Shown piece by piece: positions 427-23,574 of a DNA stretch of 32,000 bases (the first letter of the stretch is position 1; each line of letters begins with the position of its first letter). The DNA is from an uncultured Candidatus Saccharibacteria bacterium (GTDB lineage: Bacteria > Patescibacteriota > UBA1384 > XYA2-FULL-43-10 > 1-14-0-10-43-13). A program made the position numbers and the translations under genes. The notes beneath the pieces are model-generated. The model did no database searches. It was not told where the DNA came from and worked only from the letters and a program-made list of their open reading frames with translations. The stretch lies in the NCBI GenBank assembly GCA_964543385.1, contig CAZIYE010000001.1, forward strand, positions 420,001-452,000, in the 5' to 3' direction.

Positions 427-442
427 ATATGTTTATGGTTAT

Positions 443-509: not shown

Positions 510-517
510 TTAGTAAA

Positions 518-560
518 CATAAAACGAAAACGAGCCCTGGTACATCATGTACACAGGGCC
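518..560 (-). terminator. Intrinsic terminator downstream of the amidase gene
   Basis: Stem 534-544 (gccctggtaca) pairs with 548-559 (tgtac-a-cagggc). That gives 11 bp with one bulged A and a 3-nt loop. On the minus strand it is followed by TCGTTTTCGTTTTATG. Confidence 0.6.
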
Positions 561-595
561 CGCTCGGATTTTTGACCTGAGCGCGAACGCCCGGG

Positions 596-1756
596 TCATC
601 TCCCACTTCCTTTGTTCAGCTCCACCAGCGGTCCGATGACCACCTTCTGGAGCATGATCCTACGATTCTCGGGGTTCCGCAGCCTCCAGCTGTCTCCTCC
701 CAGGAATCGGCGCTGCTCAGCAGCAGACAGCCCCTTCCAGCGTGGATCCTTCGCCTGAGCGGCGATCTCAGCATCGCTGTTTGGGACGCCGCACTCGAGT
801 AGCACCTTGTTCTCGATCGTGTTATAACCACCGAGAACATCGAAGGTCTTTGCTAAAGTGCAGTTGACTGGCTTGCCGAACCGTTTCCGGCCATAGCCCT
901 GATCAAGCAGAACATTCTCGATCAGTCCGGCCAGTTGTCCAGTGTTACCTCGTCGGTGACACTCACGCAGCCCTGACCAACCATTGCTACCCAACGAGTC
1001 CACATGGAGCTCGACGAATGCACTAGTGGTACAGTTCTGGTGATCAGACTGGGCTTGGGCAGCAGCTTTCGCTCGGTCGACTGTGTCAGAGGAGTTCTGC
1101 ATGGGGTTTCCCCCATATAAGACAGCCTCTTTTGGCAACGGCAGAGGATCTTTTGGCCCAGTCACCTGGTCCATTGATTCAGCCTCGGCCGCATATACCA
1201 CAGTCGCACCGAGAGCTTCAGCCATCAGGCCAAGCTCACGCGCCATCCGATAGGTATAGGCGGCTTCCCAGTAGGCTTCTCCGTCGAATACCCAAGAGCA
1301 TCCGACGTCGAGACCATAACTGGTTACAGCATCACGGCCACCATGACCGGGGCTAACGACCAGCAACTGACCCAATAGGGCGTTCTGGCCATATTGCGCT
1401 ACGATTGCCCTACGCTCTGCTTCGGAGAAGCTGAGTTTGGGGCCTCGGGGCAGAAGTTTGCCAAGGCCTTGCGGCTCCTGGGGCTCCTGCACAGTCGTGC
1501 CGGGCTTTACAGCCGGCTTGTGCTGGTTCCACGGGTGCCACAAGAGCACGCCGAGAACCAACAACAGGAAAAGACTTGCCATGATAACGCCGAAGCGGTT
1601 CTTAGCATAGTTTTCTGCATAGGAACTACCGAACCCTGCAAAGAACGCAATGACTGCCGCCATCAGGGCTTCGAGGACCATCCACAGGCCCTGCAAAAAT
1701 GCGAGGGCTTTGGGGTGGCGGCGCCCGAAGGTCGCCCAACGCTGTTGAATCCGCAT
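596..1756 (-). CDS. Membrane-anchored N-acetylmuramoyl-L-alanine amidase (Amidase_3-like); GC-rich
   Basis: The ORF-track protein shows 'VVSPGHGGRDAV', 'GEAYWEAAYTYRMARELGLMAEALGATVVYA' and 'FVELHVDS'. These match the GHGG / E / H zinc-ligand pattern of Amidase_3. Two N-terminal hydrophobic helices are present. I moved the start to the ATG at 1756 (MRIQQRW...) because AAGGAG lies 7 nt upstream, whereas the track start at 1783 is a GTG. A spot GC count on 601-660 gives 57%. Confidence 0.6.
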   Translation of the reverse strand: MRIQQRWATFGRRHPKALAFLQGLWMVLEALMAAVIAFFAGFGSSYAENYAKNRFGVIMASLFLLLVLGVLLWHPWNQHKPAVKPGTTVQEPQEPQGLGKLLPRGPKLSFSEAERRAIVAQYGQNALLGQLLVVSPGHGGRDAVTSYGLDVGCSWVFDGEAYWEAAYTYRMARELGLMAEALGATVVYAAEAESMDQVTGPKDPLPLPKEAVLYGGNPMQNSSDTVDRAKAAAQAQSDHQNCTTSAFVELHVDSLGSNGWSGLRECHRRGNTGQLAGLIENVLLDQGYGRKRFGKPVNCTLAKTFDVLGGYNTIENKVLLECGVPNSDAEIAAQAKDPRWKGLSAAEQRRFLGGDSWRLRNPENRRIMLQKVVIGPLVELNKGSGR

Positions 1757-1849
1757 GATTTTTCTCCTTTTCAGAGCTGCCACGTGCGGTTGGACAGCTC
1801 AAGTGTTCTTCTCGCCGGATGTGTAGAATTTCCAGCGTAGACTAGGTAT

Positions 1850-1878
1850 ATTATAGCATTTTTATATATAAAAGTCAA
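1850..1878 (-). promoter_or_regulatory. Sigma70-like promoter for the amidase gene
   Basis: The minus strand reads TTGACT (1878-1873), a 17-nt spacer, then TATAAT (1855-1850). It sits in an AT-rich spacer between the two GC-rich CDSs. Confidence 0.55.
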
Positions 1879-1888
1879 TGGTAAAACA

Positions 1889-1917
1889 TTGACAAATAGC
1901 TAATATAGTGATAAAGT
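1889..1917 (+). promoter_or_regulatory. Sigma70-like promoter for the 1971-3035 gene, back-to-back with the amidase promoter
   Basis: TTGACA (1889-1894), a 17-nt spacer, then TAAAGT (1912-1917). The SD AAGGAGGG ends 5 nt before the ATG at 1971. Confidence 0.45.
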
Positions 1918-1970
1918 AGCGAGTCGATCAATCCTGATCCGACAACTCTGACACACAGAAGGAGGGCAAC

Positions 1971-3035
1971 ATGCCCCGAAACTCTCGCAGAACACGTCGT
2001 CGTCGTTTACTCATCGCCAATTTGGTGATGTTGGGCCTGATTGTCCTTGCTTTTACTGCCATACTCATTTGGCGGCATTGCAATGACAAAAAGGTTACGA
2101 CCCCGACACCTAAACCCCCCAAGACCGCCGAGGTTTTCCTTTGGATCTGGCAGATAGAGGAAGCCAAGGAAGTCTGCGGTGGAAGTCTGCAAGGGATTGT
2201 AGACAAATGTAAGGAGAATGGAATCTCCGGCCTGATCGTTTGTTCCAATCGCGGAGGCGAATGGTTCAACGATCGAGATGAGTTCGGCAAACTCCGCGAA
2301 ATTGCGGACGAAAATGAGCTCATTTTCATGGGTTATGGACGTTTCCTCGCCAAAGATCCCCCGGCAGAGATGCTGAGAACGATCGAGGCGATCCAGGACG
2401 GAGCCGATGGTTTCATCTTCGACATGGAAGCCGAATATGAAACCCCTGAGGGAGCCGAAAAAGCAAGTGCCGTCGTCGCAAACGTCAAGCGTTGGTGTGA
2501 AACCAACGCGCCTGACGTAGTCGATATGCTCGGCTACAGCTCCTTCGGTCTGCCAAGCAGGCACCCCAACTTCCCAACAGAAGAATTGGATGAGCTCTGC
2601 GGTTTCTCCGCACCCCAGTGGTACACCACCAGCTGGGCAAAGACTCAGGGCTGGTCCCTCAAAGAGAGCCAAGAGAAAATCCGCAAAGAGTTCTCTGAGC
2701 CAGGAAATGCATACGCGCCTGTCCTCCAGGCCTATGGCAAAAATAGTGGCTACGAGTACGTCACCCCCGACGAACTCAAAGCCATGCTCAAATTCTCCGG
2801 TGAGATGGAGTTCACAACCTTCGTCTCAATCTTCCGCCTGGAGCTCATGGATGACGAGCACTGGCAGACGATTAGGGAGTACACTGGCGCGAATAAACGC
2901 CAGAACAAAGCACGAGACCGGCTGGATAGCCGGTCTCGTTTCTATTATGTATCAATTTTGTCATTGCGTCTGTCGCGGTTGTCATTCCAGCTTGTAAGCT
3001 TGAGAGCTGGAATCCAGGAGTTTGTTTACTTATAA
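1971..3035 (+). CDS. Membrane-anchored protein with a putative glycoside-hydrolase-like TIM-barrel domain (GH25 / Rv2525c-like); GC-rich; 3' end uncertain
   Basis: The N-terminus is Arg-rich and followed by one TM helix (RRRRLLIANLVMLGLIVLAFTAILIW). The body has alternating beta/alpha-like segments and an acidic 'GADGFIFDMEAEYE' motif reminiscent of the GH25-type D..E catalytic strand. Family assignment is by eye only. The last ~45 codons run through two perfect hairpins. Confidence 0.35.
   Translation: MPRNSRRTRRRRLLIANLVMLGLIVLAFTAILIWRHCNDKKVTTPTPKPPKTAEVFLWIWQIEEAKEVCGGSLQGIVDKCKENGISGLIVCSNRGGEWFNDRDEFGKLREIADENELIFMGYGRFLAKDPPAEMLRTIEAIQDGADGFIFDMEAEYETPEGAEKASAVVANVKRWCETNAPDVVDMLGYSSFGLPSRHPNFPTEELDELCGFSAPQWYTTSWAKTQGWSLKESQEKIRKEFSEPGNAYAPVLQAYGKNSGYEYVTPDELKAMLKFSGEMEFTTFVSIFRLELMDDEHWQTIREYTGANKRQNKARDRLDSRSRFYYVSILSLRLSRLSFQLVSLRAGIQEFVYL
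2913..2946 (+). terminator. Canonical intrinsic terminator lying inside the annotated 3' end of the 1971-3035 ORF
   Basis: cgagaccggc (2913-2922), loop tggata, gccggtctcg (2929-2938), then tttctatta. The stem is a perfect 10 bp and GC-rich. Confidence 0.6.
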
Positions 3036-3116
3036 ATAGCCTGGATACCCGGGTCATGGCGTTGCCTGTCCAAGTATGACAAAAAAGTGTTTTCTACGTT
3101 CTGCTTACTAGTTTGC

Positions 3117-3908
3117 TTATTTTATCCCAAAGAATTTCATCGCCTTTTTAGTCGTCTCCTGCTCCACCTCAGCCAGAGAAATACCCTTTATCTCAGCAAT
3201 TTTTTTTGCGGTCTCTGTCACGTAAGATGGCTCATTTCTCTTGCCGCGATATGGCTCTGGAGCAATATATGGACAATCGGTCTCAATCATCATAGAACCT
3301 AGAGGGATTTTCTTTACTGCCTTGAGTGTATCAGGAGTTGCATTTTTAAATGTAATCGTACCGGTAAATGAAATTGCAAAACCAAGATCGAGAATTTTTT
3401 CTGCAAAATCCCAATCTCCCGAGAAACAATGCATCACTGCCCTGAGCTGACCATGATAAGATTTCAATATTCCAAGTATGTCGGCATCTGCTTCTCTGCT
3501 ATGAATAATAGCTGGCAATCCCGTCTCCAGCGCCAAATCAAGCATCTGTTCAAAACAAAAAATCTGTTCATCACGAGTAGGATAGTCTGCATATTTGCTT
3601 GACCTCTTCAAAAAATAATAATCAAGTCCTATCTCTCCTACTGCTACCACCTTTTCGTGATTAGAAAAAGTAATCATTTTCCCCTTTGATTCAATATCGA
3701 GATCTTTTGCACAGTGAGGATGAAAACCAACTGTCGCATAAACTTCAGGATATTTTCTCGCCAGGTCCAGAGACTGCTTCGAGCTATCTAGATCAACCCC
3801 CACATTAATGATTCTTTCTACTCTTGCTTCTTTGGCACGACCAAGAACCGCAGGCACTTCTGTCTTGAATTCTGGGAAGTTTAAATGAGCATGGGTATCT
3901 ATAAACAT
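3117..3908 (-). CDS. TatD-family metal-dependent hydrolase/DNase
   Basis: 'MFIDTHAHLNFPEF' is the HxH motif. Also present are 'VGEIGLDY', 'IIHSREA', 'VMHCFSG' and 'ETDCPY(I)AP'. The length of 263 aa is typical for the family. Confidence 0.9.
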   Translation of the reverse strand: MFIDTHAHLNFPEFKTEVPAVLGRAKEARVERIINVGVDLDSSKQSLDLARKYPEVYATVGFHPHCAKDLDIESKGKMITFSNHEKVVAVGEIGLDYYFLKRSSKYADYPTRDEQIFCFEQMLDLALETGLPAIIHSREADADILGILKSYHGQLRAVMHCFSGDWDFAEKILDLGFAISFTGTITFKNATPDTLKAVKKIPLGSMMIETDCPYIAPEPYRGKRNEPSYVTETAKKIAEIKGISLAEVEQETTKKAMKFFGIK

Positions 3909-3918
3909 AAATAAATCC

Positions 3919-4761
3919 TTATTTCATCAGGGTAGAATAGATTATACACAAAACAACGACTGCAGCACAAACAATATCTCTTTTAAAATTCCTGTGCTCG
4001 TTGAAATAAAAATATGAGGCCAAATAAGTAATGATCGGGGTTAACAATAATATCATAGTTGTCAGAACAACGCCGATCTGCTGAAAAGCATAGTATTTTA
4101 GAATCATTACTCCAGTTCCAAACATAGCAGATATTACGAGACTACGAACTATCGGCTTTATTAATAATAGTTTCATATCTGGTTTATAAATAGTAAAAAA
4201 GACAATCGCCAAAATCAAAACCCTTATAAAATAAAGAAGTGGGGGCGAATAAAAATTTAATAGTTGTCGAAGTGCAACCGACTCAATGGCAATTAATACA
4301 ACAGCCAATAATGTTCTTTTGGCACTTTTACTGACCTGAAAATGGTGTTTCTTAATTCGAGAGAGGAACAACGCCAAACTGGAAGCTATTCCTGCTATAA
4401 AAATATGAAAATTACGCTCTACTGGCAAAAACACAGCCGCTAACAACACAGTGGCAAGTGGTACCATTAATATAATTGTCTCATATTCATGCAATGGCTC
4501 AGTCTGCAAACTCTTGGCAAGTAGAATATTCCAAAGAGCAGCACATGCAACCATTATCAGGAATAAAATAATATATTTGAAAGAAAAAGCCTGATGATCC
4601 AGATGATAATTGACTGGAATCAAAAAAAGCGAAAGAATCGTCAATATAGAGAAAATAAAGGGAAGGTAGTCCTTCACCGGTAATTTCAATCTAGCCAAAA
4701 GGTATTTATTTGAAATATCCCCACCAGAACCGCTGATAGCTGCTAATATAGCCTGTAGCAC
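3919..4761 (-). CDS. Polytopic membrane protein, probably an EamA/DMT-type permease
   Basis: The protein is 280 aa and almost entirely hydrophobic helices (about 10), with a two-halves organisation typical of EamA. No catalytic motif was seen. Confidence 0.45.
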   Translation of the reverse strand: MLQAILAAISGSGGDISNKYLLARLKLPVKDYLPFIFSILTILSLFLIPVNYHLDHQAFSFKYIILFLIMVACAALWNILLAKSLQTEPLHEYETIILMVPLATVLLAAVFLPVERNFHIFIAGIASSLALFLSRIKKHHFQVSKSAKRTLLAVVLIAIESVALRQLLNFYSPPLLYFIRVLILAIVFFTIYKPDMKLLLIKPIVRSLVISAMFGTGVMILKYYAFQQIGVVLTTMILLLTPIITYLASYFYFNEHRNFKRDIVCAAVVVLCIIYSTLMK

Positions 4762-4866
4762 TGTCCCTCCCGAACTTTATTGAGTAATATAAATCTTAAA
4801 TTTCTAAGTTGACAATAATTCTTTCCTGTTGTGATTCGTATTATTTGTCTAATTCGTCATCCGTTG

Positions 4867-6273
4867 TTATTTGTCTAATCTTGGAAAAAGAGGCTCTGGT
4901 TCTAAAGTCTCAAGTTGCTTTTTCATCTTTTGCGCGGTCTCAGGCATAAACGGATCAATCATATCCGAAATAATCGCCAACTTTAAATAAGCATTCGTGA
5001 GGACTTCTGCTAGCTCTTCCGCTTTGTTCTCTTTCGCCAAAATCCAAGGCTGTTTATCTGCAATATATTTATTTGTCGAGATCGCTAAATCGTCAATCTT
5101 TTTAATTGCTCCCATAAAATCCAGCGATCCGATTTCTTTATCTAGGTTCATCGTCTCGTCTTTTATGGCCGAATTTTGGCTTTTAACCTCTACTTCATAC
5201 TTATTGATCATAGAGATGGTTCTTTGAACAAGATTGCCGACGTTATTGGCTAGATTAGAATACTGACTAGCAATTTTCTCCTCGGAGATGTCGCCATCTT
5301 CGCCAAATGGGAATTCTCGAAGCAATGCGTACCGCACTGCATCAACACCAAATTTATCCACTAAATCATTAGGGTTTAAAACGTTACCAATAGTTTTGCT
5401 CATCTTTTGATTACCAACCGTGAAGAAGCCATGGGCAAATACATTCTTTGGCAGTGCTAAACCAAGAGCCATAAGCATAGCCGGCCAAATCACTGCATGA
5501 AACCACAAGATATCCTTAGCCATGAGGTGCAAATTTGCTGGCCAGAATTCATCTTTCTTATACAACTTCGTTGCAGTATAGTAGTTCAACAATGCATCAA
5601 TCCAGACATAGATAGTTTGGCTATCGTCTTCTGGGAACTTAACTCCCCACTCTACTGCTGCTCTAGAAATAGAAATGTCCTCGAGTCCAAGCTTTATTTT
5701 ACCGACTATCTCATTCTTTCTTGACTCGGGACCAATCTCAAATTCGCCAGACTCAATCTTCTCCAAAATCTTCTCACCAAATTGCGACAGTTTAAAAAAG
5801 TAGTTCTCCTCCGTCTGTCGCACTGGTTCTTTTAGGTGGTCTGGACATTTGCCGTCTACTAATTCGGACTCTTTCAAAAACTTTTCACAGCCAACACAAT
5901 AAAGGCCTTCATAGCTTCTTTTCTCTACAAAACCCTTGTCTTTTAGATTTTGGACAAATTCCTGTACCTGTTTCTCATGATCAGGGTTAGTCGTTCTAAA
6001 GAACTCATCGTAAGATATATTGAGATTTTTCCAGGCTTCTTTGAACTTAGGCTCAAGCTCATCTACGAAATCTTGCGGTGATTTTCCGGCCTTCGTCGCA
6101 GCTTCAGCAATCTTTGCTCCATGCTCGTCTGTACCGGTTAGAAAAAAAACCTCATCACCTTTCTTGCGATGATAACGTGCGAGAACATCTGCTGCCACCG
6201 TCGTATAAGCGTGCCCAATATGCGGAACATCATTTATATAATAGATCGGGGTTGTAATATAATATTTACTCAT
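4867..6273 (-). CDS. metG: Methionine--tRNA ligase (short form, no C-terminal tRNA-binding domain)
   Basis: 'YYITTPIYYINDVPHIGHAYTTVAADVLARY' carries the HIGH motif and 'KMSKTIGN' the KMSKS motif. A CVGCEKF...CPDH zinc knuckle is also present. Confidence 0.95.
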   Translation of the reverse strand: MSKYYITTPIYYINDVPHIGHAYTTVAADVLARYHRKKGDEVFFLTGTDEHGAKIAEAATKAGKSPQDFVDELEPKFKEAWKNLNISYDEFFRTTNPDHEKQVQEFVQNLKDKGFVEKRSYEGLYCVGCEKFLKESELVDGKCPDHLKEPVRQTEENYFFKLSQFGEKILEKIESGEFEIGPESRKNEIVGKIKLGLEDISISRAAVEWGVKFPEDDSQTIYVWIDALLNYYTATKLYKKDEFWPANLHLMAKDILWFHAVIWPAMLMALGLALPKNVFAHGFFTVGNQKMSKTIGNVLNPNDLVDKFGVDAVRYALLREFPFGEDGDISEEKIASQYSNLANNVGNLVQRTISMINKYEVEVKSQNSAIKDETMNLDKEIGSLDFMGAIKKIDDLAISTNKYIADKQPWILAKENKAEELAEVLTNAYLKLAIISDMIDPFMPETAQKMKKQLETLEPEPLFPRLDK

Positions 6274-6368
6274 AGATTGATCTTACCAGATTATATATAA
6301 GCTTCCAAGATGATAAAAGTAGAAGACAGAATAAGATTGATTTAATTGAGAGAAAAGCTGCAATTTAT

Positions 6369-6397
6369 TTGACTTTTATAACATTTTATTGTATATT
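6369..6397 (+). promoter_or_regulatory. Sigma70-like promoter for the GC-rich lipoprotein gene
   Basis: TTGACT (6369-6374), a 17-nt spacer, then TATATT (6392-6397). Confidence 0.5.
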
Positions 6398-6440
6398 ATA
6401 CATATCATCTCCCACATGGGAGTGCAAGGAGGTAGCTCCC

Positions 6441-6848
6441 ATGAGAGCTACGACAATACTACTGGCCGCTTTAATCGCCCTTGTCACAATCTCCGGCTGC
6501 GGGATGGTAGAAGATCGCGTCAGGATCAACCCGACAGTCAAATCAGTGTCCATGGACTTCGGGAAGGAGGTGTTGCATATTAAGGTAGCTCCCTATGATT
6601 CCAACATCTACATACTGGGTACCGCCGTGGACTTACCGGACGGAACAACTAGCGCCGTCTCGCTCAACGTCAGCTATTGGAGCGGCTCCGCCCACCAATA
6701 CAACTATGGCGATGCAGCATTCACCTTCTCGCCAGTGGATTTTAAAGCGGTATACCGCTTTAAAATCCGAGTCGAGGGGCCCTCAATCGTCGCTGACGCT
6801 ATTGAGGAAACATGGGAATATCAAGGGGGGCAGTGTATCAAGCTCTGA
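6441..6848 (+). CDS. Small secreted lipoprotein (135 aa), function unknown; GC-rich
   Basis: The internal ATG at 6441 is preceded by AAGGAGG (6426-6432). 'MRATTILLAALIALVTISGC' is a signal peptide with the lipobox I-S-G-C. A spot GC count on 6601-6660 gives 57%. Confidence 0.7.
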   Translation: MRATTILLAALIALVTISGCGMVEDRVRINPTVKSVSMDFGKEVLHIKVAPYDSNIYILGTAVDLPDGTTSAVSLNVSYWSGSAHQYNYGDAAFTFSPVDFKAVYRFKIRVEGPSIVADAIEETWEYQGGQCIKL

Positions 6849-6854
6849 ACGCCT

Positions 6855-6890
6855 TCGAGGCGGCCAACCGGCCGCCTCGATTGCATTTTA
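6855..6890 (+). terminator. Intrinsic terminator between the convergent lipoprotein and giant-protein genes
   Basis: tcgaggcggcc (6855-6865), loop aacc, ggccgcctcga (6870-6880), then ttgcatttta. The stem is a perfect 11 bp. Confidence 0.7.
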
Positions 6891-6907
6891 TTGGCTTTGT
6901 ATCTTCT

Positions 6908-9900
6908 CTACCAAGACCAAGAGAATATAGTTATACTCCAACTCGTACCTAATCGTAGATTACCCTTTTGCGTATTAAAATAATCCGTTACCACACCAGT
7001 CAGAATATTGTCCCTGAAAAAACCCCAGACACCGTCAAGAATTGGCGAAAGAATATGATTGAGAAAATACTGGGTTCGATCACCTTTGCCCATCACCATA
7101 ATATTCCAGAAATCATTAATAGTACTAATTTGGTTTTTGACCCAAGCCATTGCATCATCTCCAACAGCGTTAACAAAGGCACCGAAACTAACAATTAGCT
7201 TAAAATTAACTTTAATCTCTTTATCACTAGTCAAATTTCTACATATCATTTTACCTTCTTTTGTCGATTTTATATCTGTCGTTGGCCGCCCGCTGTCATC
7301 AAAATAACGTGGGGCTTCACAATCTGGCGCTGCCATGCTTTGAATTAGGAAGTTTCTGGATGCTTTTGCCACTATTTCCTTATTACTACCATAATCTAGC
7401 GTTACTACCCCGTTAGGATCAGTCGTTCCAAAAGGATTTCTCTTCGCAAGAGCTAATTGATTATTCTTATAGGTTTCGAGTCTGTCCGGTATAAAAGTTA
7501 CCATTAGATTATTATAAAAATTATCGAGAGAACCAATCGCAGCCGCCGTATCAATCTGAGCTGACGACAAAGTCAAACCGCGCGAGACAAGAGTCTGATT
7601 AAATTTTGGTATTATATCAAAATTAAATAACGAAGTAAGTTTATCTGTAATACTTGTGACTTTCCTCACAGTGCATTGAGGTGATCTTGGATTCTCTTGG
7701 CAAGCAATATTTACACACTGAGCCACCCCAACCTTGTCACCCAAAACTGCCTTATTTATAATATCCGTATTTGAACATGGAGAAATACCAATAATTTGTC
7801 TGCTGACCAGCCCCCCTCTTCTGTCATTAATCGTAACTTCACGACTACCATTAGGCAAAACAGTCACAGTTGTGGTAGTACCATCTGAATTTGCGATAAT
7901 TCTCATAGCTCCTGGTCGGTCCGGTACTGTATTGCCAAATAACCCAGCGCCAAGTCTTGTTAGGATGCTAGTCGCATTGCTCTCGAGTTCAGTAATCCCT
8001 TCAATTGTTTGCCTACCAAGCTTATAGGCGTTAGTAAGATTGACCTGGTCACGCCATAGCGACTTCACGTCGTTGATTTTAGAATCAACCCAGCCAAGAA
8101 CACCCCCTCGTGTTTTTGCTTTGATTTGCTCAATTTGCGAAGCAGTATCGGCATCCGTAATTACAGAATTAAGATCTTTCTGTACATTTAACCTGATTTG
8201 TTTGGGTCTGAAAGTCGCAGTAACTGTTTTATCAGAAGTGACGTTACTAACAGTACATTGATAACCATCTGTCGATATATCCGTGCAACCGTTCCAAACA
8301 ACTATGGAATTGTTTTCTGGCATAGTTGAAATGATTGCAGAATCGCCGTAATTCACCACCTGAGTCAGCGGATTTACGCCATTTATAGAACCCAGATCAG
8401 TTCTTGAGACAGGATCATTCACTGAGCTCACAATCACCGTGAAGATCCTTTTGCGGACTTTGACTACGACATCATGATTTGCATCGATATTTGTAATACT
8501 GCAGGTTGATGCAGTAGGAGTGGTCGGCATACAGCCGGTCCAGCTAACGATTTCACTACCTGCATCGATCAGTATCACCATAAAATTGACGTTACCGCCA
8601 GGGGCGATTTGCTGATTGGACGGGTTGATAGAAGCGCGGGCATTTGAAGCAGGATCGATCATACCAGTGACTGTGTGCATCGTTGCAAAGGCAGCGTCAA
8701 TTGTATGATCAGCAATAATAGATGTGAAAGCATAAGAGCCGGAACTGACAGCGGCATTATTAGTAGCACCGTCGATGCGAACATCCCTGATATTATATCC
8801 GAGAGCAGCAGTTACCAAATAAGATTGAGAATCACCATAATTTACCGTCTTTACACCAGCGGGTGTGATCAAGCCGTTTACTCCTGCTGTTGATTTGATA
8901 GTAAAAGTCTTGAGTTTAAAGGTGGCGATGACTGTCCTATTGGAGATGATATTGTCAAGTTTACAAAGGTCAGACTCAATACTATCGCAACCGGACCAAT
9001 CAGTATTGGGATTAAATTCAACGGATGAAATAGCCGCAGTAGCTTTTATTAGTAAAATATCACCCATATTAACTACTGTGTAGGGAATTGTTTTGTCAAA
9101 AGTTCCGTCACCATTGCCTGCCTTATTGATACTAATAGTATATGTGTTAATAGCAAAACTAACATAAATACTATGATCGCCCGATATATTAGAGAATGTA
9201 TAACTTGAAACTAAATCCACGGGATTTGCATCAACAACTAATGTTTCTATATGATAATTAACTGCCGGAGTGAAGGTATAAGTTTTAGATTGTCCGTAGC
9301 TCACATAAGTTATGCCTGGTGATGAAATCGCCCCGTTAGAACCGAGAACTGCATTAATCGAATATGTCCTAATAATAAAAGTAACTGCAATTGTGTGATT
9401 AGAATCAACATTGTCAAACCAGTAGGAGCTATCAGCAACAGCCGTAGGGTTGTTCACTCCGTCAACCAACACCTGATATATAAGATAACCATTATTAGGG
9501 GTAAATGTGTATAATTTAGAATAATCATATCCTACCATCGTAACACCTGGAGTCAAAATTGAACCGTTTTGACCTGCTGTAGCTGTAATAGCATAAGTAT
9601 CGCGAGTATAGACTACCGAGACCGTGTGATTAGCGGAAATATCAGAGAAAGTATAAAAGCCTGCAGCTATCGCTCCGCTATTTGATACTCCGTCCACTAA
9701 GACTTCACCTATATGATAGTGATTCTCCGACGTGAAAGTATAAGTCTTAGAGGAATCCCAATTTACAACAGTAGCTCCTGGTGAAGTGATTGAGCCGTTC
9801 GAACCTGTTGTGGCAGTAATGGTGTAGGTATTAATGTCAAAAGTAGCCGAGATAGTGTGATTAGCAGTTACATTGGTAAAGTTATATGAACTTACAGCAC

Positions 9901-11551: not shown

Positions 11552-11562
11552 ATTTTTCCAAA

Positions 11563-12282: not shown

Positions 12283-12348
12283 TTCCCCTCCAAAAGAACT
12301 AAAAAAATACTAATGCTAATATAGCCTATTTATGTAGTTATAGTCAAT

Positions 12349-13044: not shown

Positions 13045-13153
13045 AGCCTATTATTAATTACTATCGATCACCACTTTATTCTTTATATACGATACTCTAC
13101 CATATTTTGCCTCATATTGGTATAACATCAGTATCTGGCATGGAGGTACATCC

Positions 13154-13417: not shown

Positions 13418-13451
13418 AACCCACCCTTGCACAAGATGCCACGGTGGGTTC
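13417..13451. terminator. Hairpin between convergent genes
   Basis: gaacccacc (13417-13425) pairs with ggtgggttc (13443-13451). The stem is 9 bp and the loop 17 nt. Confidence 0.35.
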
Positions 13452-13465
13452 TTGCCTTATTAGGG

Positions 13466-14950: not shown

Positions 14951-15027
14951 GTCCCCTCACTATAATTAGTGTTCGAATGAAGTAAGAGATATCCAGCTCA
15001 AGCTCTAATTTGCAACCAAACAATAAT

Positions 15028-15897: not shown

Positions 15898-15924
15898 TTT
15901 TAATTTTATGGAATTAATTAGGAA

Positions 15925-16923: not shown

Positions 16924-17003
16924 GTCTATGAGTATTTTACCAAACGATATGACTTTAAACAATATTGGCCGCCTTAATAAGGCGGCCACACAGGATTACC
17001 TGG

Positions 17004-17177
17004 TCAATAATTATAATCGTTTGCCCTTCTTACTGTTTCAGGGTCATAGGAGAATAAATCATCCAGGCATTTTGGTGTACTGCAAAGCAAACACCATAGT
17101 TTTTCCAACGCCATGAAAGTGATAGCCAATGACATGATGGCGTGAATAATGAATATGATCGAGATATTACCCCTCAT
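17004..17177 (-). CDS. Small Cys-rich single-TM protein (57 aa), hypothetical
   Basis: The ATG at 17177 is preceded by GAGGAGGGG ending 4 nt upstream. The protein is MRGNISIIFIIHAIMSLAITFMALEKLWCLLCSTPKCLDD..., one TM helix followed by CxxCxxxxC. The longer 80-aa track ORF lacks an SD. Confidence 0.4.
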   Translation of the reverse strand: MRGNISIIFIIHAIMSLAITFMALEKLWCLLCSTPKCLDDLFSYDPETVRRANDYNY

Positions 17178-17521
17178 AATCCCCTCCTCAGAAGCAGTCA
17201 TTCTACATCTGATAATATTTTTAACACGAAATTTAAAGAAGCACAATAAAATACACGCTTTTTAATAAATTAATCAACTATAAAATAGATAATCTGCAAA
17301 TGAGCAAGTATTTTAAAATAAGATTCCTGCAATAAATGTCTTACTTAAAATAAGTATTACAGCTCTGTGACAAGACGCTATCTCAAACCGCTCATGATTC
17401 CAGGCTTAATCAGAAATCTTTGGCGAGTTGCGATCACCTGCCAGTAGCAGAAAACCCCTAGTAATAGAAACTATAAATCCCCTCCGATCCCCGTAATCAC
17501 TCAGGGTATCGAGGCATATTT

Positions 17522-17550
17522 ATTATCTGTCTAATAAATATTTTTGTCAA
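17522..17550 (-). promoter_or_regulatory. Sigma70-like promoter upstream of a ~340-nt leader
   Basis: The minus strand reads TTGACA (17550-17545), a 17-nt spacer, then GATAAT (17527-17522). Confidence 0.45.
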
Positions 17551-17581
17551 TTAGTTGATAGGTCCGCATATATAATGTCAA

Positions 17582-17609
17582 GGTCCCGGCAGATAAATCT
17601 ACCGGGACC
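17582..17609 (-). terminator. GC-rich hairpin downstream of the GC-rich 17650-18600 gene
   Basis: ggtcccgg (17582-17589) pairs with ccgggacc (17602-17609). The stem is a perfect 8 bp with a 12-nt loop and sits 41 nt after the stop. The trailing sequence is only moderately U-rich. Confidence 0.45.
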
Positions 17610-17649
17610 GTGATCTCCCACTCCTTCCTAAACTGTAGTTTGCACTCTC

Positions 17650-18600
17650 CTATCTGGAGAGCTCATGATCGATTTCCGATAACCGTGCTTTCATATCAGT
17701 TTCGTCCTGATCGACAAAGGCAACCTTCTGTTTTGCCGCTTCCCACTCAACTTTCTTGCGATCAGTCTCTGCTTGAGCAGTACTTCGACGCTTCGGCACT
17801 TCGCCCAACCGACGATTGAGATCTTCCCGCTCCTTTTTGAGACGGACAAGCATGTCAGCAGCGGCAAGTTCCCAGAAATGCAACGATGGCATAAAGCCGT
17901 CTTCGTTCTCGGGGTACAAGACTCCGTTGCGAATGAGAATATGCAGGAGATACTTGAAGTCGGGAACCGTCAATTCCTGATGAAGCGCCGACTTAAGCGC
18001 AGCCTTGATCGACTCCAACCGGTATGGACCCTCTCCGCTATCCGATAGGTAACTGCACACTTGGCTCATCACGGCGAATTTGGTGATTTGCTCCCCGAGA
18101 CGCTCCCTAACAAGCTGACGCTGTTCGAACCGTTGAACATCGCGGTGCTTACGCTTCCTACTGAGTGCAGCGATTTCTTCCTCGAGCTGACGATCAGACT
18201 CTTTTACATACCTCTCACAAGTTGCCACATAGTTTGGCTTCACGATCGCCAGGAATCCACACGCTCCGGCATAAGAATCAAAGACCATGCAGACTGACCA
18301 TTGCTGGTCAGACCCTTGTGGACGAACCCGCAGCTCGACGTAATCACTTCCATCGAACTTGAACCCGAAGAGCGCACTCACACCATGCATTTCGCCTATT
18401 GTCCTGATGGGCTTTACGTAGAGGATCGCCTTTTTACAAGCAATCTCGTTGTAACCCAGGACATCAGCGAGCCAACGATCGATCTCATCAACTAGACCTT
18501 GGATGTCGATCTGATGGTCCCACTTGTCGTCGAGGATCAATTCGATCTGTCGTGACCGATTCTCTTGCTGTGATAACCCCAGCCATTTTGCAATGTTCAT
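17650..18600 (-). CDS. Hypothetical protein (316 aa) with an N-terminal globular part and long C-terminal coiled-coil segments; GC-rich
   Basis: The ATG at 18600 (MNIAKWLGL...) has AAGGGGA about 8 nt upstream. There are charged heptad-like stretches (ESDRQLEEEIAALSRKRKHRDVQRFEQRQLVRERL; LVRLKKEREDLNRRLGEV...). No family was recognised. A spot GC count on 17701-17760 gives 50%. Confidence 0.55.
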   Translation of the reverse strand: MNIAKWLGLSQQENRSRQIELILDDKWDHQIDIQGLVDEIDRWLADVLGYNEIACKKAILYVKPIRTIGEMHGVSALFGFKFDGSDYVELRVRPQGSDQQWSVCMVFDSYAGACGFLAIVKPNYVATCERYVKESDRQLEEEIAALSRKRKHRDVQRFEQRQLVRERLGEQITKFAVMSQVCSYLSDSGEGPYRLESIKAALKSALHQELTVPDFKYLLHILIRNGVLYPENEDGFMPSLHFWELAAADMLVRLKKEREDLNRRLGEVPKRRSTAQAETDRKKVEWEAAKQKVAFVDQDETDMKARLSEIDHELSR

Positions 18601-18661
18601 TGCTACTTCCCCTTGTGTAACAAAAATCACTGCTTGCACTATTGCAAAGCAGTTGCATAAT

Positions 18662-18690
18662 ACTATACTATTTTTAGATCAATTTGTAAA
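18662..18690 (-). promoter_or_regulatory. Sigma70-like promoter for the 17650-18600 gene
   Basis: The minus strand reads TTTACA (18690-18685), a 17-nt spacer, then TATAGT (18667-18662). It starts 5 nt after the pcrA stop. Confidence 0.5.
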
Positions 18691-18694
18691 TGAC

Positions 18695-20656: not shown

Positions 20657-20776
20657 CTGCTTAACCCTTACTGCTTAATTCTTAATTCTGTTCGATTATA
20701 TCGAATATACGAACAAATTCCAAACAAAACATTGTTTCATATTCAACTAAATTATTATTTGCGTTATATTAATTTA

Positions 20777-21475
20777 ATGAGCAAAGTTTTAGTCAGTGTT
20801 ACAACTTTAGAAAATCCCAAATGGGCAAAACAAGTAGAGGATCTGGCAAGATTCAATATAGATGAATTTGCAATTTTTATTTCTTGTTTAAATCCAACCG
20901 AACGTCAAGACCTTTATACTAAGCTTGAGAAGCTTAAATCCATCAAAGTTCCTTTCGCACATATTAGAACAGACGTAAATGATTCAGAACTGGAATATCT
21001 GGTTAAACGATTTGGCCTAGAACTTTGTAATATACATCCGAGTTCGGAGTTTGCCCTGCAATATGAGTGGAAAAAATATCGGAAAATTATACTGATAGAA
21101 AATGTTATACATTCAATAATTGATGAAGAAGAATTAAAAACCTTCGGTGGAATATGCTTGGATACTGCTCATTTAGAAAACCATCGATTATCAGATATGC
21201 CCAAGTACGAATATACTGTAAAACTAATTCAAAAATATTCAGTCAAGGCTAACCATATTAGTGGAATTTTGCATATTCCGGCTCACATAGACACCGGACA
21301 TCCCGAAAGACTTTGTTATGACAATCACGATGTACACTCAATTACTGAATTTAACTATCTAAAAAATTTTCCGAAAGATTACTTTGGCAAATATTTATCA
21401 ATTGAAGTTGGAAATGATATTGAGGCTCAATTAAAGATAAAAGAATATATCAAGAAAGTTCTAAATATTAAGTAA
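20777..21475 (+). CDS. Hypothetical protein, possibly a xylose-isomerase-like TIM barrel (AP-endonuclease-2 superfamily)
   Basis: The start was moved to the ATG at 20777 (MSKVLVSV...). Only weak cues support the family call: 'ICLDTAHLENH', and His/Asp/Glu spaced as in sugar-phosphate isomerase/epimerase barrels. Confidence 0.3.
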   Translation: MSKVLVSVTTLENPKWAKQVEDLARFNIDEFAIFISCLNPTERQDLYTKLEKLKSIKVPFAHIRTDVNDSELEYLVKRFGLELCNIHPSSEFALQYEWKKYRKIILIENVIHSIIDEEELKTFGGICLDTAHLENHRLSDMPKYEYTVKLIQKYSVKANHISGILHIPAHIDTGHPERLCYDNHDVHSITEFNYLKNFPKDYFGKYLSIEVGNDIEAQLKIKEYIKKVLNIK

Positions 21476-21560
21476 AAGATCCAGTAAAAACAAAAAGAGC
21501 AAACCGCTCAAGCATCACCTCCTTACAGAGGTTCACTCTCTTCGCGATCCGCTCTCGGAT

Positions 21561-22817
21561 CTATTTTGTCATTGGCTGCTGCATAATGCTGGCATAGGGC
21601 AGGAAATCACCAACCCACCGCTCAATCGGTGTCGCGTCGAAGATGGTCCTCCCGAGAAGGGCGTTGCCAACGCTGGCAATCGCTTCCTCCATCATCCGAA
21701 TGGAATGAACAGCGGCTTCGCCGATCTGTTTTTTGGTGCGGTAATGCGGAACGAGGTGTGCCTGCCAGGCATCATCATGATCGGCTTTTGCCTGCTCGAT
21801 TGCATCGTAGATACCATAAACACGGAAGATCGCACGTTGGATCTCCTTGTTTGCCGGAATCATGTATACACGCCCATCGGGAGCTGTGTAGGCGAGCATG
21901 ATCCTATTCTCATCGGGATTACAGGCGAAGTCGGTGAAGATCGGGAAACCGTTAACGACCATACCCTCAGTTTTCCCGTCGATGCTCATGAGGCCCAGCG
22001 CCTTGCAGTAATCGCGCTGGTGACGAGCATTCTCTGCCACCGTTTTCCGCCAAGCCATAAAAGCCAGCGGATCAAGGTGCATCATCAGCCGCGCCTCATC
22101 TTCTGTCATAGTAGCATCACCTGCCGGCCGAAACTTCGTGTCGAAATTGATAGCCGGTTCGGCAATCATGTGGCCCGGATTGGGGATACAATCAAGACCG
22201 GCCGCCGCGAGTACCCGCACCATCGCCGGATCTTGCATGATCCCGGGGATAGCCCGAATCTCATCAAGCCCGACAATCGTATCGGCATAAGTAGCGATCT
22301 TCTCATACCGTTCTACCATGTTGGCCGCGCCAAAGATCTTCTTGAAGGTTGAGCTCCCGAGCGGGAACCCCCAACGATGAATACATTCTGCGTCAGCGAC
22401 GAACACGTTGATATCGCCCGAGTTGATCAGTCGGTGATAAATCGCTCGCGTTTCGTCCGTTATCTTATCGCCGAAGACATGGGGGGTTACCCCCAGCTTC
22501 ATAACAATGATATCGGAGAGTTCTCCGCGGTCCATCAACGTCTCCACATCCGTGATCTTACCATCCTTGTCGAGCATACCGGCATAGGTATGTTGGAAAC
22601 CGGCTGCAGAGGCCTGCTCCCAATACCGTGCCGACGTCATCGCCAAAATATAGTTCTTGTCACGGATCTCGATTGGGGGTATTAGCTCCTTGAGATCGCC
22701 GACCGAAAAGCGGCCGGATACCTGCCAGGCGCCAAGCCCCAACGAATTGAACCCCGGCTTTCGAAATAACCGGCCTCCAGGGCTGTCACCCTGAATTTGA
22801 TCTTTCACTGAACCCAT
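21561..22817 (-). CDS. Hypothetical 418-aa protein with a possible SAICAR-synthase-like nucleotide-binding core; GC-rich
   Basis: The ATG at 22817 (MGSVKDQ...) has GAGAGGAAG upstream. 'SIDGKTEGMVVNGFPIFTDFACNPDENRIM' resembles the PurC 'vDfKlEfG....g.vvL.DE..sPD.sR.W' motif (D.K.E.G ... D ... PD..R). The rest was not recognised. A spot GC count on 21601-21660 gives 58%. Confidence 0.3.
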   Translation of the reverse strand: MGSVKDQIQGDSPGGRLFRKPGFNSLGLGAWQVSGRFSVGDLKELIPPIEIRDKNYILAMTSARYWEQASAAGFQHTYAGMLDKDGKITDVETLMDRGELSDIIVMKLGVTPHVFGDKITDETRAIYHRLINSGDINVFVADAECIHRWGFPLGSSTFKKIFGAANMVERYEKIATYADTIVGLDEIRAIPGIMQDPAMVRVLAAAGLDCIPNPGHMIAEPAINFDTKFRPAGDATMTEDEARLMMHLDPLAFMAWRKTVAENARHQRDYCKALGLMSIDGKTEGMVVNGFPIFTDFACNPDENRIMLAYTAPDGRVYMIPANKEIQRAIFRVYGIYDAIEQAKADHDDAWQAHLVPHYRTKKQIGEAAVHSIRMMEEAIASVGNALLGRTIFDATPIERWVGDFLPYASIMQQPMTK

Positions 22818-22972
22818 AATCACTTCCTCTCTCTTTTTCAAGAGATAGTCCATGCATCCATGCAAAAATATCTGACAGAGATCCTACTCGGCCACCAGTT
22901 GGAAAAGTACCTCCTCTAGATTGTATTAGATAACCAAACAAGGCACACACTATGTGCCCTGTTTCCAACTAA

Positions 22973-23001
22973 TGTATACCAAATCAGACAATAAATTTCA
23001 A
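22973..23001 (-). promoter_or_regulatory. Candidate promoter for the 21561-22817 gene
   Basis: The minus strand reads TTGAAA (23001-22996), a 17-nt spacer, then TATACA (22978-22973). The predicted 5' end would fold into the 22936-22964 hairpin (12 bp, one mismatch). Confidence 0.35.
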
Positions 23002-23008
23002 TTTTGAC

Positions 23009-23567: not shown

Positions 23568-23574
23568 TTAAACC

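What the first reader, a model, noticed from the sequence alone, without database searches (positions are those of the whole stretch)
518..23001. Five GC-rich single-gene cassettes scattered through a low-GC backbone, each with an AT-rich consensus promoter and most with a GC-rich hairpin terminator
Spot counts on 60-nt lines give 57% GC (601-660), 57% (6601-6660), 50% (17701-17760) and 58% (21601-21660), against 33% (3961-4020) in the backbone.

The GC-rich stretches coincide with five CDSs and little else: 596-1756, 1971-3035, 6441-6848, 17650-18600 and 21561-22817.

Each CDS has a strong SD. Each is preceded, in AT-rich DNA, by a -35/17-bp/-10 promoter:
- TTGACT-17-TATAAT
- TTGACA-17-TAAAGT
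- TTGACT-17-TATATT
- TTTACA-17-TATAGT
- TTGAAA-17-TATACA

Four are followed by 8-11 bp GC-rich stems (one has a single bulged base, the others are perfect).

The cassettes sit exactly between a neighbour's stop or terminator and the next backbone promoter. For example, 17582-18690 fills the gap between the pcrA stop and the 17522-17550 promoter.

I see no integrase, transposase, tRNA gene or flanking direct repeats.

This looks like repeated, precise acquisition of foreign genes from a high-GC donor, by a mechanism that leaves no conventional mobile-element scars. The donor could be the host of an episymbiont. Three of the five products are extracytoplasmic or cell-wall active.
Basis: partly seen in the sequence, partly recalled or inferred. 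Interest (0 to 1): 0.7.

Follow-up and report, generated by a model that had tools for sequence, protein, structure and literature searches.

The report
GC-rich accessory genes in a Patescibacteria chromosome
Five genes with much higher G+C than their surroundings really do sit as self-contained units in the low-GC chromosome of an ultra-small (CPR/Patescibacteria) bacterium. They look like gene traffic among such bacteria rather than fresh, scarless captures from a high-GC host, and several have kept their odd composition longer than neutral decay should allow.

Summary
Five genes in four islands (531-2938, 6409-6879, 17582-18584, 21504-22793) have GC 0.51-0.57 and GC3 0.57-0.62. Eighteen backbone genes have GC 0.385±0.03 and GC3 0.34±0.04 (z 5.6-7.1). 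Island edges fall on 5'UTR starts and 3' hairpins, and the promoters are AT-rich and native in type. Identical sequence recurs in independent assemblies, so this is not a chimera.

The backbone is a Patescibacteria chromosome with conserved synteny.
- c3 and c4 are absent from relatives' loci.
- c1, c2 and c5 occupy the same slots in some relatives and are GC-rich there too.
- The nearest homologues of c1, c2 and c5 are in other low-GC Patescibacteria contigs or, for c5, DPANN archaea, never in a high-GC genome. c4 is an orphan.
- c5 is a divergent PurC, the remnant of a GC-rich purB-purE-purC(-purH) block seen as islands in many such genomes.
- c2 and its promoter were exchanged between lineages after the backbones diverged.
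- A relative carries a different cassette in the c4 slot, bracketed by a 95-nt duplication of the pcrA 3' end.

One puzzle remains. In two lineage pairs with near-saturated synonymous sites, the shared islands still have GC3 of 0.58-0.83.

The parts
531..2938 (.). GC-rich island 1 (GC 0.544). It holds the divergent gene pair c1/c2 and their shared AT-rich promoter region.
   Evidence: HMM segmentation; composition profile
596..1756 (-). c1: membrane-anchored protein resembling N-acetylmuramoyl-L-alanine amidase (Amidase_3), 386 aa. GC 0.573, GC3 0.623.
   Evidence: Pfam PF01520 at E=2e-5, 25.2 bits, just under the 27-bit cut-off. Homologues carry PF01520. Found in the same slot in L086, L130 and L129.
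533..566 (-). c1 terminator hairpin with a U-rich tail
   Evidence: Fold -42.5 kcal/mol, z -6.6
1850..1878 (-). c1 promoter, TTGACT-17-TATAAT (11 of 12, extended TG)
1874..1893 (.). Palindrome GTCAATG-N6-CATTGAC that overlaps both -35 hexamers; a possible operator
   Evidence: Read from the sequence. Conserved at nucleotide level in L129 and L130.
1889..1917 (+). c2 promoter, TTGACA-17-TAAAGT
1971..3035 (+). c2: N-terminal TM helix plus a (beta/alpha)8 barrel resembling a glycoside hydrolase, 354 aa. The GC-rich part ends at 2938.
   Evidence: AlphaFold pLDDT 90. Nearest folds by TM-score are GH18 chitinases, among generic TIM-barrel hits. The domain is fused to Amidase_3 in P0128. Homologues at 77% and 57% sit in the same slot in L130 and L129.
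2912..2939 (+). c2 12-bp hairpin with a U-rich tail, lying inside the ORF as called
   Evidence: The peptide it encodes, ARDRLDSRSR, is conserved in L130.
6369..6397 (+). c3 promoter, TTGACT-17-TATATT
6441..6848 (+). c3: small lipoprotein, 135 aa, with signal plus lipobox ...TISGC. GC 0.520, GC3 0.618.
   Evidence: No homologue in any fetched locus or in viral contigs.
6855..6880 (+). c3 terminator (11-bp stem, 9 GC pairs). It ends 28 nt before the stop codon of the convergent 1547-aa surface-protein gene.
17582..17609 (-). c4 3' hairpin (12 bp) with no U-tract. It is followed directly by the backbone promoter at 17550>17522.
17650..18600 (-). c4: orphan protein, 316 aa, with a coiled-coil C-terminus. 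GC 0.507, GC3 0.565.
   Evidence: Only a self-match among 5.8 billion proteins. Absent between pcrA and the G5-domain gene in L005 and L006.
18662..18690 (-). c4 promoter, TTTACA-17-TATAGT, starting 5 nt after the pcrA stop codon
21497..21509 (-). c5 terminator-like hairpin with a U-tract, 22 nt after the stop codon of the convergent orf247
21561..22817 (-). c5: divergent long-form SAICAR synthetase (PurC-like), 418 aa. GC 0.540, GC3 0.625.
   Evidence: NCBIfam PurC at E=2.6e-7, below cut-off. AlphaFold pLDDT 95, and all significant PDB fold matches (38 with E < 0.1) are PurC or PAICS. Relatives carry it inside purB-purE-purC(-purH) blocks.
22973..23001 (-). Weak c5 promoter, TTGAAA-17-TATACA, followed by a 5'UTR of about 150 nt
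   Evidence: Read from the sequence. It does not pass the scan's criteria.

Best explanation
The five genes are accessory transcription units of foreign compositional type. They sit in variable slots beside the 3' ends of conserved genes in a Patescibacteria (CPR) chromosome.

They most likely entered and moved by horizontal gene flow among Patescibacteria lineages, ultimately from an unidentified GC-richer source. Transfer probably used recombination at conserved flanks. Genome streamlining then trimmed each one down to promoter, gene and terminator and erased the junction scars.

The five differ in age:
- **c1/c2** is an old, conserved, divergently transcribed cell-wall-hydrolase pair next to tatD. 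In the window's lineage the c2 allele and its promoter were replaced relatively recently.
- **c5** is the surviving purC of a GC-rich purB-purE-purC(-purH) block that was already at this locus before the split from L093.
- **c3 and c4** are lineage-specific insertions.

Shown here: composition, anatomy, synteny, homologue contexts and synonymous-site patterns. Inferred: the route of entry, the erosion of scars, and the existence of a GC-rich ultimate source.
For: **Backbone and synteny**
- The order pilB-dnaX-dnaB-...-pcrA-G5-ksgA-nramp-rsmI-metG-EamA-tatD is conserved, in whole or in overlapping parts, in L005-L010 and L086. None of these loci encodes c3, c4 or c5.
- c1 and/or c2 lie beside tatD in L086, L129 and L130. 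In L086 the far flank (antitoxin, then NifS) also matches the window.
- c5 occupies the same locus in L093 (purC-purB-orf247-pcrA; PcrA 71% identical) and in L127.

**The purC-like family (c5)**
- Distant homologues (48% identity or less) match their own low-GC backbones.
- The nearest clade (49-60% identity) forms GC-rich islands at several different loci, often together with GC-rich purB, purE and purH.
- Where L132 has purB-purE-purC, L003 has only purC at the same locus. A cluster can therefore decay to a single gene.

**Evidence of exchange between lineages**
- Between the window and L130, c2 has 4-fold-site identity 0.61 (residual 0.40), while tatD has 0.31 (residual 0.12) despite 92% amino-acid identity.
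- The c1-c2 promoter region is conserved at the nucleotide level in the window, L129 and L130.
- On the window's branch, c2 shows 1 GC>AT change in 32 GC sites. tatD shows 9 in 25.

**Evidence of decay toward the backbone composition**
- The window's c5 has GC3 0.62, against 0.72-0.83 in most of its clade.
- Polarised GC>AT: AT>GC counts are 17:5 in the window and 16:1 in L133.

**Insertion mechanism**
- In L093 the slot after pcrA holds a different single-gene cassette. It is bracketed by a 95-nt duplicate of the pcrA 3' end (alignment score 111; best of 100-200 shuffles 29-30).

**Shared signature**
- The GC-normalised dinucleotide signature of the window's islands is closer to the islands of other genomes (delta* 0.054) than to its own backbone (0.087-0.091).
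Against: - No GC-rich donor genome was found for any of the five genes.
- Every context retrieved for GC-rich homologues is a low-GC backbone.
- In two lineage pairs whose backbone synonymous sites are near saturation (window/L093 and L004/L133), the shared islands keep GC3 of 0.58-0.83. Their backbones are at 0.25-0.50. Plain neutral decay toward the backbone composition would not allow this. Either something slows the decay, or the genes are repeatedly re-seeded.
- The window's islands show no junction scars, so the route of entry here is inferred from a single relative.
- The substitution counts are small, and parsimony is biased in sequences of skewed composition.
Confidence: 0.55

Rival explanations
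1. Gene-specific maintenance. These are long-resident accessory genes, and a force that acts on the whole transcribed unit holds their high GC in place. That force could be selection on DNA or mRNA composition. It could also be GC-biased gene conversion tied to frequent recombination of these genes between lineages. On this view there is no recent foreign origin.
For: - c5 in the window and L093, and purC-like plus the B12-radical-SAM gene in L004 and L133, share loci and have diverged about as far as their neighbours. Residual synonymous similarity is 0.13-0.18 for these genes and -0.05 to 0.12 for the neighbours. They nevertheless keep GC3 of 0.58-0.83 against 0.25-0.50.
- c2 stays at GC3 0.54-0.61 while the backbones range from 0.34 to 0.54.
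- Rough equilibrium GC3* for the islands is 0.60-0.84 in L003, L132 and L004.
- The enrichment covers the UTRs and raises both G and C, and its edges follow transcript ends.
- No GC-rich donor was found.
- GC-rich genes coalesce more recently than their neighbours in two pairs, which biased gene conversion would predict.
Against: - The purC-like family is not GC-rich in itself, because distant homologues match their backbones.
- The GC-rich clade sits at at least five unrelated loci, which implies transfer.
- Some lineages are clearly decaying: L133 has GC3* 0.34 and the window's c5 has GC3 0.62.
- Ribosomal-protein genes are not GC-rich, so expression level is not the cause.
- From my own knowledge, reported biased-gene-conversion effects in bacteria are far smaller than 20-40 GC3 points.
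Confidence: 0.25
2. Single genes were captured recently, repeatedly and precisely from a high-GC donor such as the episymbiont's host, by a mechanism that leaves no scars.
For: - The compositional departure is sharp.
- The window has no integrase, tRNA gene or flanking repeats.
- c3 and c4 are absent from the loci of relatives.
- Three of the products act on the cell envelope.
Against: - c1, c2 and c5 occupy the same loci in relatives.
- The best homologues of c1, c2 and c5 all lie in low-GC Patescibacteria or DPANN contexts, and none exceeds 77% identity.
- c4 has no homologue at all.
- The promoters are AT-rich and native in type, and the c1-c2 promoter is conserved among relatives.
Confidence: 0.08
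3. Prophage or other mobile-element remnants. The cassettes would be phage 'morons' or cargo left behind after the element decayed.
For: - The anatomy of promoter, gene and terminator with a foreign composition is that of a moron.
- In L131 the pur block lies next to a relaxase, a coupling protein and a serine recombinase.
- The L093 cassette has a target duplication of the kind integrative elements leave.
Against: - None of the five products matches PHROGs or PADLOC.
- No relatives were found in IMG/VR, INPHARED or PLSDB.
- All the neighbours are housekeeping genes in conserved synteny.
- The conjugative-element genes in L131 are themselves low-GC.
Confidence: 0.07
4. Assembly or binning artefact, with chimeric joins between a low-GC and a high-GC genome.
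For: Metagenome assemblies can be chimeric where composition changes.
Against: - Contigs assembled independently from two other runs are 100% identical across the boundaries.
- The c1-c2-tatD contig was seen in 5 samples.
- The same proteins lie on a 671-kb NCBI contig.
- The boundaries fall exactly at promoters and terminators.
- The same arrangement occurs in unrelated projects: L086, L129, L130 and L093.
Confidence: 0.02

Closest known systems
Phage 'morons' (Juhala et al. 2000; Hendrix et al. 2000; cited from my own knowledge)
   Same: - Each unit is a single gene with its own promoter and terminator.
- It is inserted between genes that are adjacent in relatives.
- Its base composition differs from the flanks.
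   Different: - These units sit in a cellular chromosome among housekeeping genes, not in a phage.
- They have no phage homologues.
- Three of the five are conserved at their loci across diverged lineages.
Horizontally acquired genomic islets and the amelioration model (Lawrence & Ochman 1997; cited from my own knowledge)
   Same: - The genes have atypical composition with sharp edges.
- They are distributed patchily among relatives.
- Some lineages show directional GC>AT decay.
   Different: - From my own knowledge, acquired genes and orphans are usually AT-richer than the recipient genome. These are GC-richer.
- Their density is high: five genes in 23 kb.
- Their composition outlasts synonymous-site saturation in two lineage pairs.
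Integron gene cassettes
   Same: They are single-gene mobile units packed between other genes.
   Different: - There are no attC sites, no IntI integrase and no array.
- Each gene has its own promoter.
Integrative elements that target the 3' end of a gene and duplicate it
   Same: - In L093 the cassette after pcrA is bracketed by a 95-nt copy of the pcrA 3' end.
- All four of the window's islands abut the stop codon of a backbone gene.
   Different: - No recombinase gene is present.
- The window's own islands have no detectable duplication.
GC-biased gene conversion in bacteria (Lassalle et al. 2015; cited from my own knowledge)
   Same: GC3 is higher in genes that show signs of exchange between lineages, and both G and C are raised, including in the UTRs.
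   Different: The effect here is 20-40 GC3 points, far larger than reported, and it stops at transcript boundaries. It was not demonstrated here.

Membership tests
Phage moron | Autonomous unit with its own promoter and terminator | tested here: met
   Four consensus-like promoters and five stable 3' hairpins. The c5 promoter is weak.
Phage moron | Lies within a phage or prophage genome | tested here: not met
   The neighbours are housekeeping genes in conserved synteny. There are no PHROG hits and no viral relatives.
Phage moron | Base composition differs from the flanks, and the gene is absent between the same neighbours in relatives | tested here: inconclusive
   The composition criterion is met. 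Absence from relatives holds for c3 and c4 only; c1, c2 and c5 are present in some relatives.
Integron gene cassette | attC recombination site at the cassette end | tested here: not met
   No repeat or inverted-repeat family is shared among the cassette ends. Each has a different terminator hairpin.
Integron gene cassette | IntI integrase and attI nearby; cassettes lack promoters | tested here: not met
   No recombinase gene in the 32 kb. Each cassette has its own promoter.
Classical genomic island / integrative element | Integrase or recombinase gene | tested here: not met
Classical genomic island / integrative element | Insertion at a tRNA gene or a gene's 3' end, with flanking direct repeats | tested here: not met
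   No tRNA gene. Flank alignments score within the shuffled range for all four islands. The feature is met only by a different cassette in relative L093.
   The best hits of c1, c2 and c5 lie on low-GC Patescibacteria or DPANN contigs, and c4 has none. c3 was not searched for homologues beyond viral contigs.
   Met for c3 and c4. Not met for c1, c2 and c5.
SAICAR synthetase (PurC), for c5 | PurC fold | tested here: met
   AlphaFold pLDDT 95. All 38 PDB fold matches with E < 0.1 are PurC or PAICS, with TM-score (target-normalised) 0.37-0.73, and 0.56-0.73 for stand-alone PurC.
SAICAR synthetase (PurC), for c5 | Sequence-model score above the curated cut-off | tested here: not met
   Pfam 12.9 bits (cut-off 20). 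NCBIfam 30.1 bits (cut-off 459) and 20.1 bits (cut-off 189.9). No PDB hit by sequence or by profile.
SAICAR synthetase (PurC), for c5 | Clustered with other purine-synthesis genes | tested here: inconclusive
   Clustered with purB, purE and purH in L131, L132, L091, L089, L088 and L093. It stands alone in the window and in L003, L004 and L133.
N-acetylmuramoyl-L-alanine amidase (Amidase_3), for c1 | Pfam PF01520 score above the gathering threshold | tested here: inconclusive
   25.2 bits against a cut-off of 27, E=2e-5. All eight homologues found carry PF01520.

The most novel reading that the evidence does not exclude
Some Patescibacteria genomes have a two-class base composition. In the loci examined here, a rough tally of the ORF tables puts perhaps a fifth of genes in the GC-rich class. 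These are accessory genes for purine synthesis, radical-SAM enzymes, wall hydrolases and orphans. They hold GC3 of 0.6-0.8 across whole transcription units, through divergence that saturates backbone synonymous sites. On this reading a persistent gene-specific force is at work. It could be GC-biased conversion linked to constant DNA uptake and recombination between lineages, or selection on transcript composition. Ordinary horizontal transfer followed by decay would not be the cause.
Probability: 0.22. Interest if true: 0.75.

Novelty: new variant of a known kind. Interest (0 to 1): 0.5.

Why it matters
CPR/Patescibacteria have tiny genomes and depend on other cells. How they gain and keep accessory functions is poorly known.

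This locus shows that conserved operon junctions act as slots for single-gene accessory units. Wall hydrolases and purine genes circulate among lineages. A purBEC(H) block is decaying gene by gene. The foreign-looking composition can outlast the time in which it should have faded.

If that persistence proves real genome-wide, it would provide a natural system for separating mutation bias, biased gene conversion and selection on base composition in bacteria. It would also mean that GC-based screens for horizontal transfer in these genomes need re-reading.

Tried and rejected
- **Integron cassettes, IS or MITE cargo.** No shared end motifs, terminal inverted repeats or recombinase were found.
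- **Phage or plasmid origin.** No hits in PHROGs, PADLOC, IMG/VR, INPHARED or PLSDB.
- **Codon bias driven by expression level.** Ribosomal-protein genes in related loci have backbone GC. In the window's islands, UTRs and both G3 and C3 are enriched.
- **Continuous gene conversion from a GC-rich host's DNA.** This would explain gene-sharp edges, but it predicts near-identical GC-rich homologues, and none exist.
- **Non-coding RNAs in the gaps at 17247-17581 and 22850-23700.** No credible Rfam match at gathering or E-value thresholds.
- **Donor taxonomy for purB and purH from PDB matches.** Uninformative, because all matches were distant.
- **Literature.** Four full-text searches found no description of GC-rich islands in CPR genomes.
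- **Fetching the 671-kb NCBI contig.** Not possible. The look-ups returned only short Logan contigs.
- **Between-sample SNPs.** None exist to use, since the assemblies from the three runs are identical.

Full report

Yes.

Composition:
- A 300-nt sliding profile shows plateaus at 0.50-0.60 GC over about 450-3000, 6450-6900, 17550-18600 and 21450-22950, in a backbone of about 0.38.
- The five genes have GC 0.507-0.573 and GC3 0.565-0.625. Eighteen backbone genes have GC 0.385±0.028 and GC3 0.343±0.040, with a maximum of 0.409. The GC3 z-scores are 5.6-7.1 and the Mann-Whitney test gives p=3e-5.
- GC1 and GC2 are raised as well.
- Both C and G rise at 4-fold sites.
- Most cassette UTR segments are GC-rich (0.50-0.70; the c4 and c5 5'UTRs are 0.42), against 0.33 for backbone intergenic DNA. 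This is a property of the whole transcribed unit, not a codon preference.

Boundaries and signals:
- A two-state HMM places the islands at 531-2938, 6409-6879, 17582-18584 and 21504-22793. Each runs from a 3' hairpin to the start of a 5'UTR or close to the start codon.
The fifth, for c5, is weak.
- All five genes have a stable 3' hairpin, and four of these have a U-rich tail.
- c1 and c2 share a single AT-rich divergent promoter, so there are four islands rather than five.
- No tRNA gene, Rfam family, recombinase, shared repeat or flanking repeat was found.

Assembly:
- The window is Logan contig SRR12261227_92172.
- Contigs from SRR12261223 and SRR12261224 are 100% identical over the parts that could be compared (window 460-6766 and 7650-28639).
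- The proteins also lie on a 671-kb NCBI contig. An assembly chimera is therefore very unlikely.

**2. What are the genes and the backbone?**

The backbone encodes NifS, an antitoxin, TatD, an EamA-type membrane protein, MetRS, a 1547-aa surface protein, RsmI, Nramp, KsgA, a G5-domain protein, PcrA, RlmN, DnaB, DnaX and a PilB ATPase. The nearest species representatives are Patescibacteria MAGs, with PcrA 72%, 68% and 64% identical in L005-L007.

The five GC-rich genes are:
- **c1** is a membrane-anchored Amidase_3-like protein.
- **c2** has one TM helix and a confidently predicted TIM barrel. Its nearest folds by TM-score are GH18-type glycosidases, among generic TIM-barrel hits. In P0128 this domain is fused to Amidase_3. 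c1 and c2 are therefore probably a pair of wall hydrolases.
- **c3** is a small lipoprotein.
- **c4** has no homologue other than itself.
- **c5** is a long, divergent PurC. Its sequence matches are weak, but the model has pLDDT 95 and all its significant fold matches are SAICAR synthetases.

**3. Are they insertions?**

Only some of them are. Synteny from pilB to tatD is conserved, in whole or in overlapping parts, in L005-L010 and L086, and none of those loci encodes c3, c4 or c5.

The other three genes have counterparts at the same loci in some relatives:
- An amidase homologue (36% identity) lies directly after tatD in L086, with the same genes on both sides.
- L129 carries a c2 homologue (57%) and the start of c1 beside tatD.
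- L130 carries both genes: c2 at 77% and c1 at 37%.
- L093 has purC-purB-orf247-pcrA, and L127 has orf169-orf134-...-purC. c5 was therefore already at its locus, and the window's lineage has lost purB.

In every one of these relatives the genes exceed their backbone in GC. The margin is smaller where the backbone GC is higher.

**4. Where do the homologues live?**

Never in a high-GC genome.

- For c5, 120 homologues were found, and the named ones are DPANN archaea and a Berkelbacterium.
- In 24 loci where context was available, homologues at 48% identity or less match their low-GC backbone.
- The nearest clade (49-60% identity) forms GC-rich islands (GC 0.53-0.64, GC3 up to 0.83) in backbones of 0.35-0.48. 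These sit at several unrelated loci.
- In that clade the neighbours are often purB, purE and purH, and these are equally GC-rich.
- L132 has purB-purE-purC where L003 has only purC. L004 and L133 share a lone purC and a GC-rich B12-radical-SAM gene.

A single-gene cassette can therefore be what remains of a larger GC-rich block.

**5. How old are they, and how do they move?**

Exchange between lineages:
- Between the window and L130, c2 has 4-fold-site identity 0.61 (residual 0.40). The adjacent tatD, 92% identical in protein, has 0.31 (residual 0.12).
- The c1-c2 promoter region is nearly identical across the window, L129 and L130.
- On the window's branch, c2 shows 1 GC>AT change in 32 GC sites, while tatD shows 9 in 25.
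- c2 and its promoter were therefore exchanged between lineages after the backbones had diverged.

Decay toward the backbone:
- c5 in the window (GC3 0.62) and purC in L133 (0.58) are lower than most of their relatives.
- They show excess GC>AT changes: 17:5 in the window and 16:1 in L133.

Route of entry:
- In L093 the slot right after the pcrA stop codon, where the window has c4, holds a different single gene with a hairpin.
- That cassette is bracketed by a 95-nt degenerate duplicate of the pcrA 3' end (alignment score 111; best of 100-200 shuffles 29-30).
- Insertion at the 3' end of a gene, with duplication of the target, therefore happens in this group.
- All four of the window's islands abut a stop codon, but they carry no such repeat. 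The scars have presumably eroded.

**6. What does not fit simple transfer followed by decay?**

- For the pairs window/L093 and L004/L133, the backbone 4-fold sites are close to saturation (residual -0.05 to 0.12).
- The shared islands have diverged about as far (residual 0.13-0.18). Even so, they retain GC3 of 0.58-0.83, against 0.25-0.50 in the backbone.
- Under the backbone's own mutation pressure, that excess should mostly be gone.
- Rough polarised estimates give island GC3* of 0.60-0.84 in three lineages and 0.34-0.54 in L133. The counts are small and parsimony is biased.
- GC-normalised dinucleotide signatures of islands from different genomes resemble each other (delta* 0.05-0.10) far more than they resemble their own backbones (0.17-0.24). 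In the window the island-to-backbone gap is modest, 0.087-0.091 against a null of 0.050±0.015.

Either these genes are re-seeded again and again from a GC-rich pool that has not been sampled, or a gene-specific force slows their decay.

**7. Verdict**

The compositional finding is solid. The 'scarless capture from a high-GC host' reading is only partly right.

The best account is horizontal gene flow of accessory units among Patescibacteria into slots at the ends of conserved genes. The units are of mixed age, are being trimmed down, and are partly decaying toward the backbone composition (confidence 0.55). A maintaining force is a serious rival, or a complement, at 0.25.

In kind, these are closest to phage morons and genomic islets, but they lie in a cellular chromosome, and their bias runs toward GC rather than AT. 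I rate the finding a new variant of a known kind, with interest 0.5.

Noticed in passing
L093:5736-6858: A single-gene cassette (orf269, 5879-6688, minus strand, GC 0.50, no Pfam hit) sits right after the pcrA stop codon. It is bracketed by a 95-nt direct repeat: the pcrA 3' end (5736-5829) and a degenerate copy of it (6761-6858). A RhuM/Fic-like gene (6972-7985) follows.
   Followed up: yes
window 2912-3035: The c2 ORF has no stop codon before its terminator-like hairpin. It reads on for 96 nt into AT-rich DNA. The hairpin-encoded peptide ARDRLDSRSR is conserved in L130, but the tail after it is not. If transcription ends at the hairpin, the mRNA would lack a stop codon.
   Followed up: partly
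window 441-490: Four tandem copies of a 12-nt unit (GTAATATAACAA) lie between a strong promoter (509>481, TTGACA-17-TATATT) and the start of a PhdYeFM-type antitoxin gene (217-426, minus strand). This could be an operator array. A contig from another sample breaks here.
   Followed up: no
window 23100-23670: A 570-nt stretch with no ORF. It contains a near-consensus promoter (23603>23575) and, about 60 nt downstream of it, a terminator (23516>23497), so it is a candidate small RNA of about 80 nt. It has no Rfam match. A 20-bp bidirectional terminator lies at 23009-23052.
   Followed up: partly
window 17247-17521: A leader of about 275 nt lies between the backbone promoter (17550>17522) and a small ORF (17004-17246) upstream of the G5-domain gene. 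It has no Rfam match.
   Followed up: partly
window 29072-31393: The type IV pilus ATPase PilB carries an N-terminal HU-type DNA-binding domain (Pfam Bac_DNA_binding + MshEN + T2SSE). The N-terminal region also matches in L127 (residues 1-106).
   Followed up: no
L127:6059-7281: The dnaB homologue is interrupted by about 1.2 kb between residues ~409 and ~395-469 of the window's DnaB. This looks like an intein or another insertion.
   Followed up: no
L131:1-5586: The GC-rich purB-purE-purC-purH block lies about 2.3 kb (one SBP_bac_5 gene) from a Replic_Relax protein, a TrwB/DUF87 coupling protein and a large serine recombinase. These conjugative-element genes are themselves low-GC (0.42-0.44).
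   Followed up: partly
L004:19649-20944, L133:17424-18791, L088:5168-6538: A B12-binding radical-SAM gene is a GC-rich island (GC 0.58-0.66, GC3 0.66-0.83) in three Patescibacteria loci. The copies in L004 and L133 are 80% identical at the same locus.
   Followed up: partly
window 3117-3908 vs L129/L130: TatD is 92-94% identical in protein between genomes whose neighbouring EamA-type protein is only 44-84% identical and MetRS is 72% identical (L129; not on the L130 contig). Synonymous sites in tatD are nevertheless near saturation. The locus therefore shows a strongly mosaic pattern of evolutionary rates.
   Followed up: partly
window 6741-6765: A perfect palindrome (TTTAAAGCGGTATACCGCTTTAAA) lies inside c3. 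By contig-length arithmetic, two contigs from SRR12261224 appear to end and overlap here.
   Followed up: no
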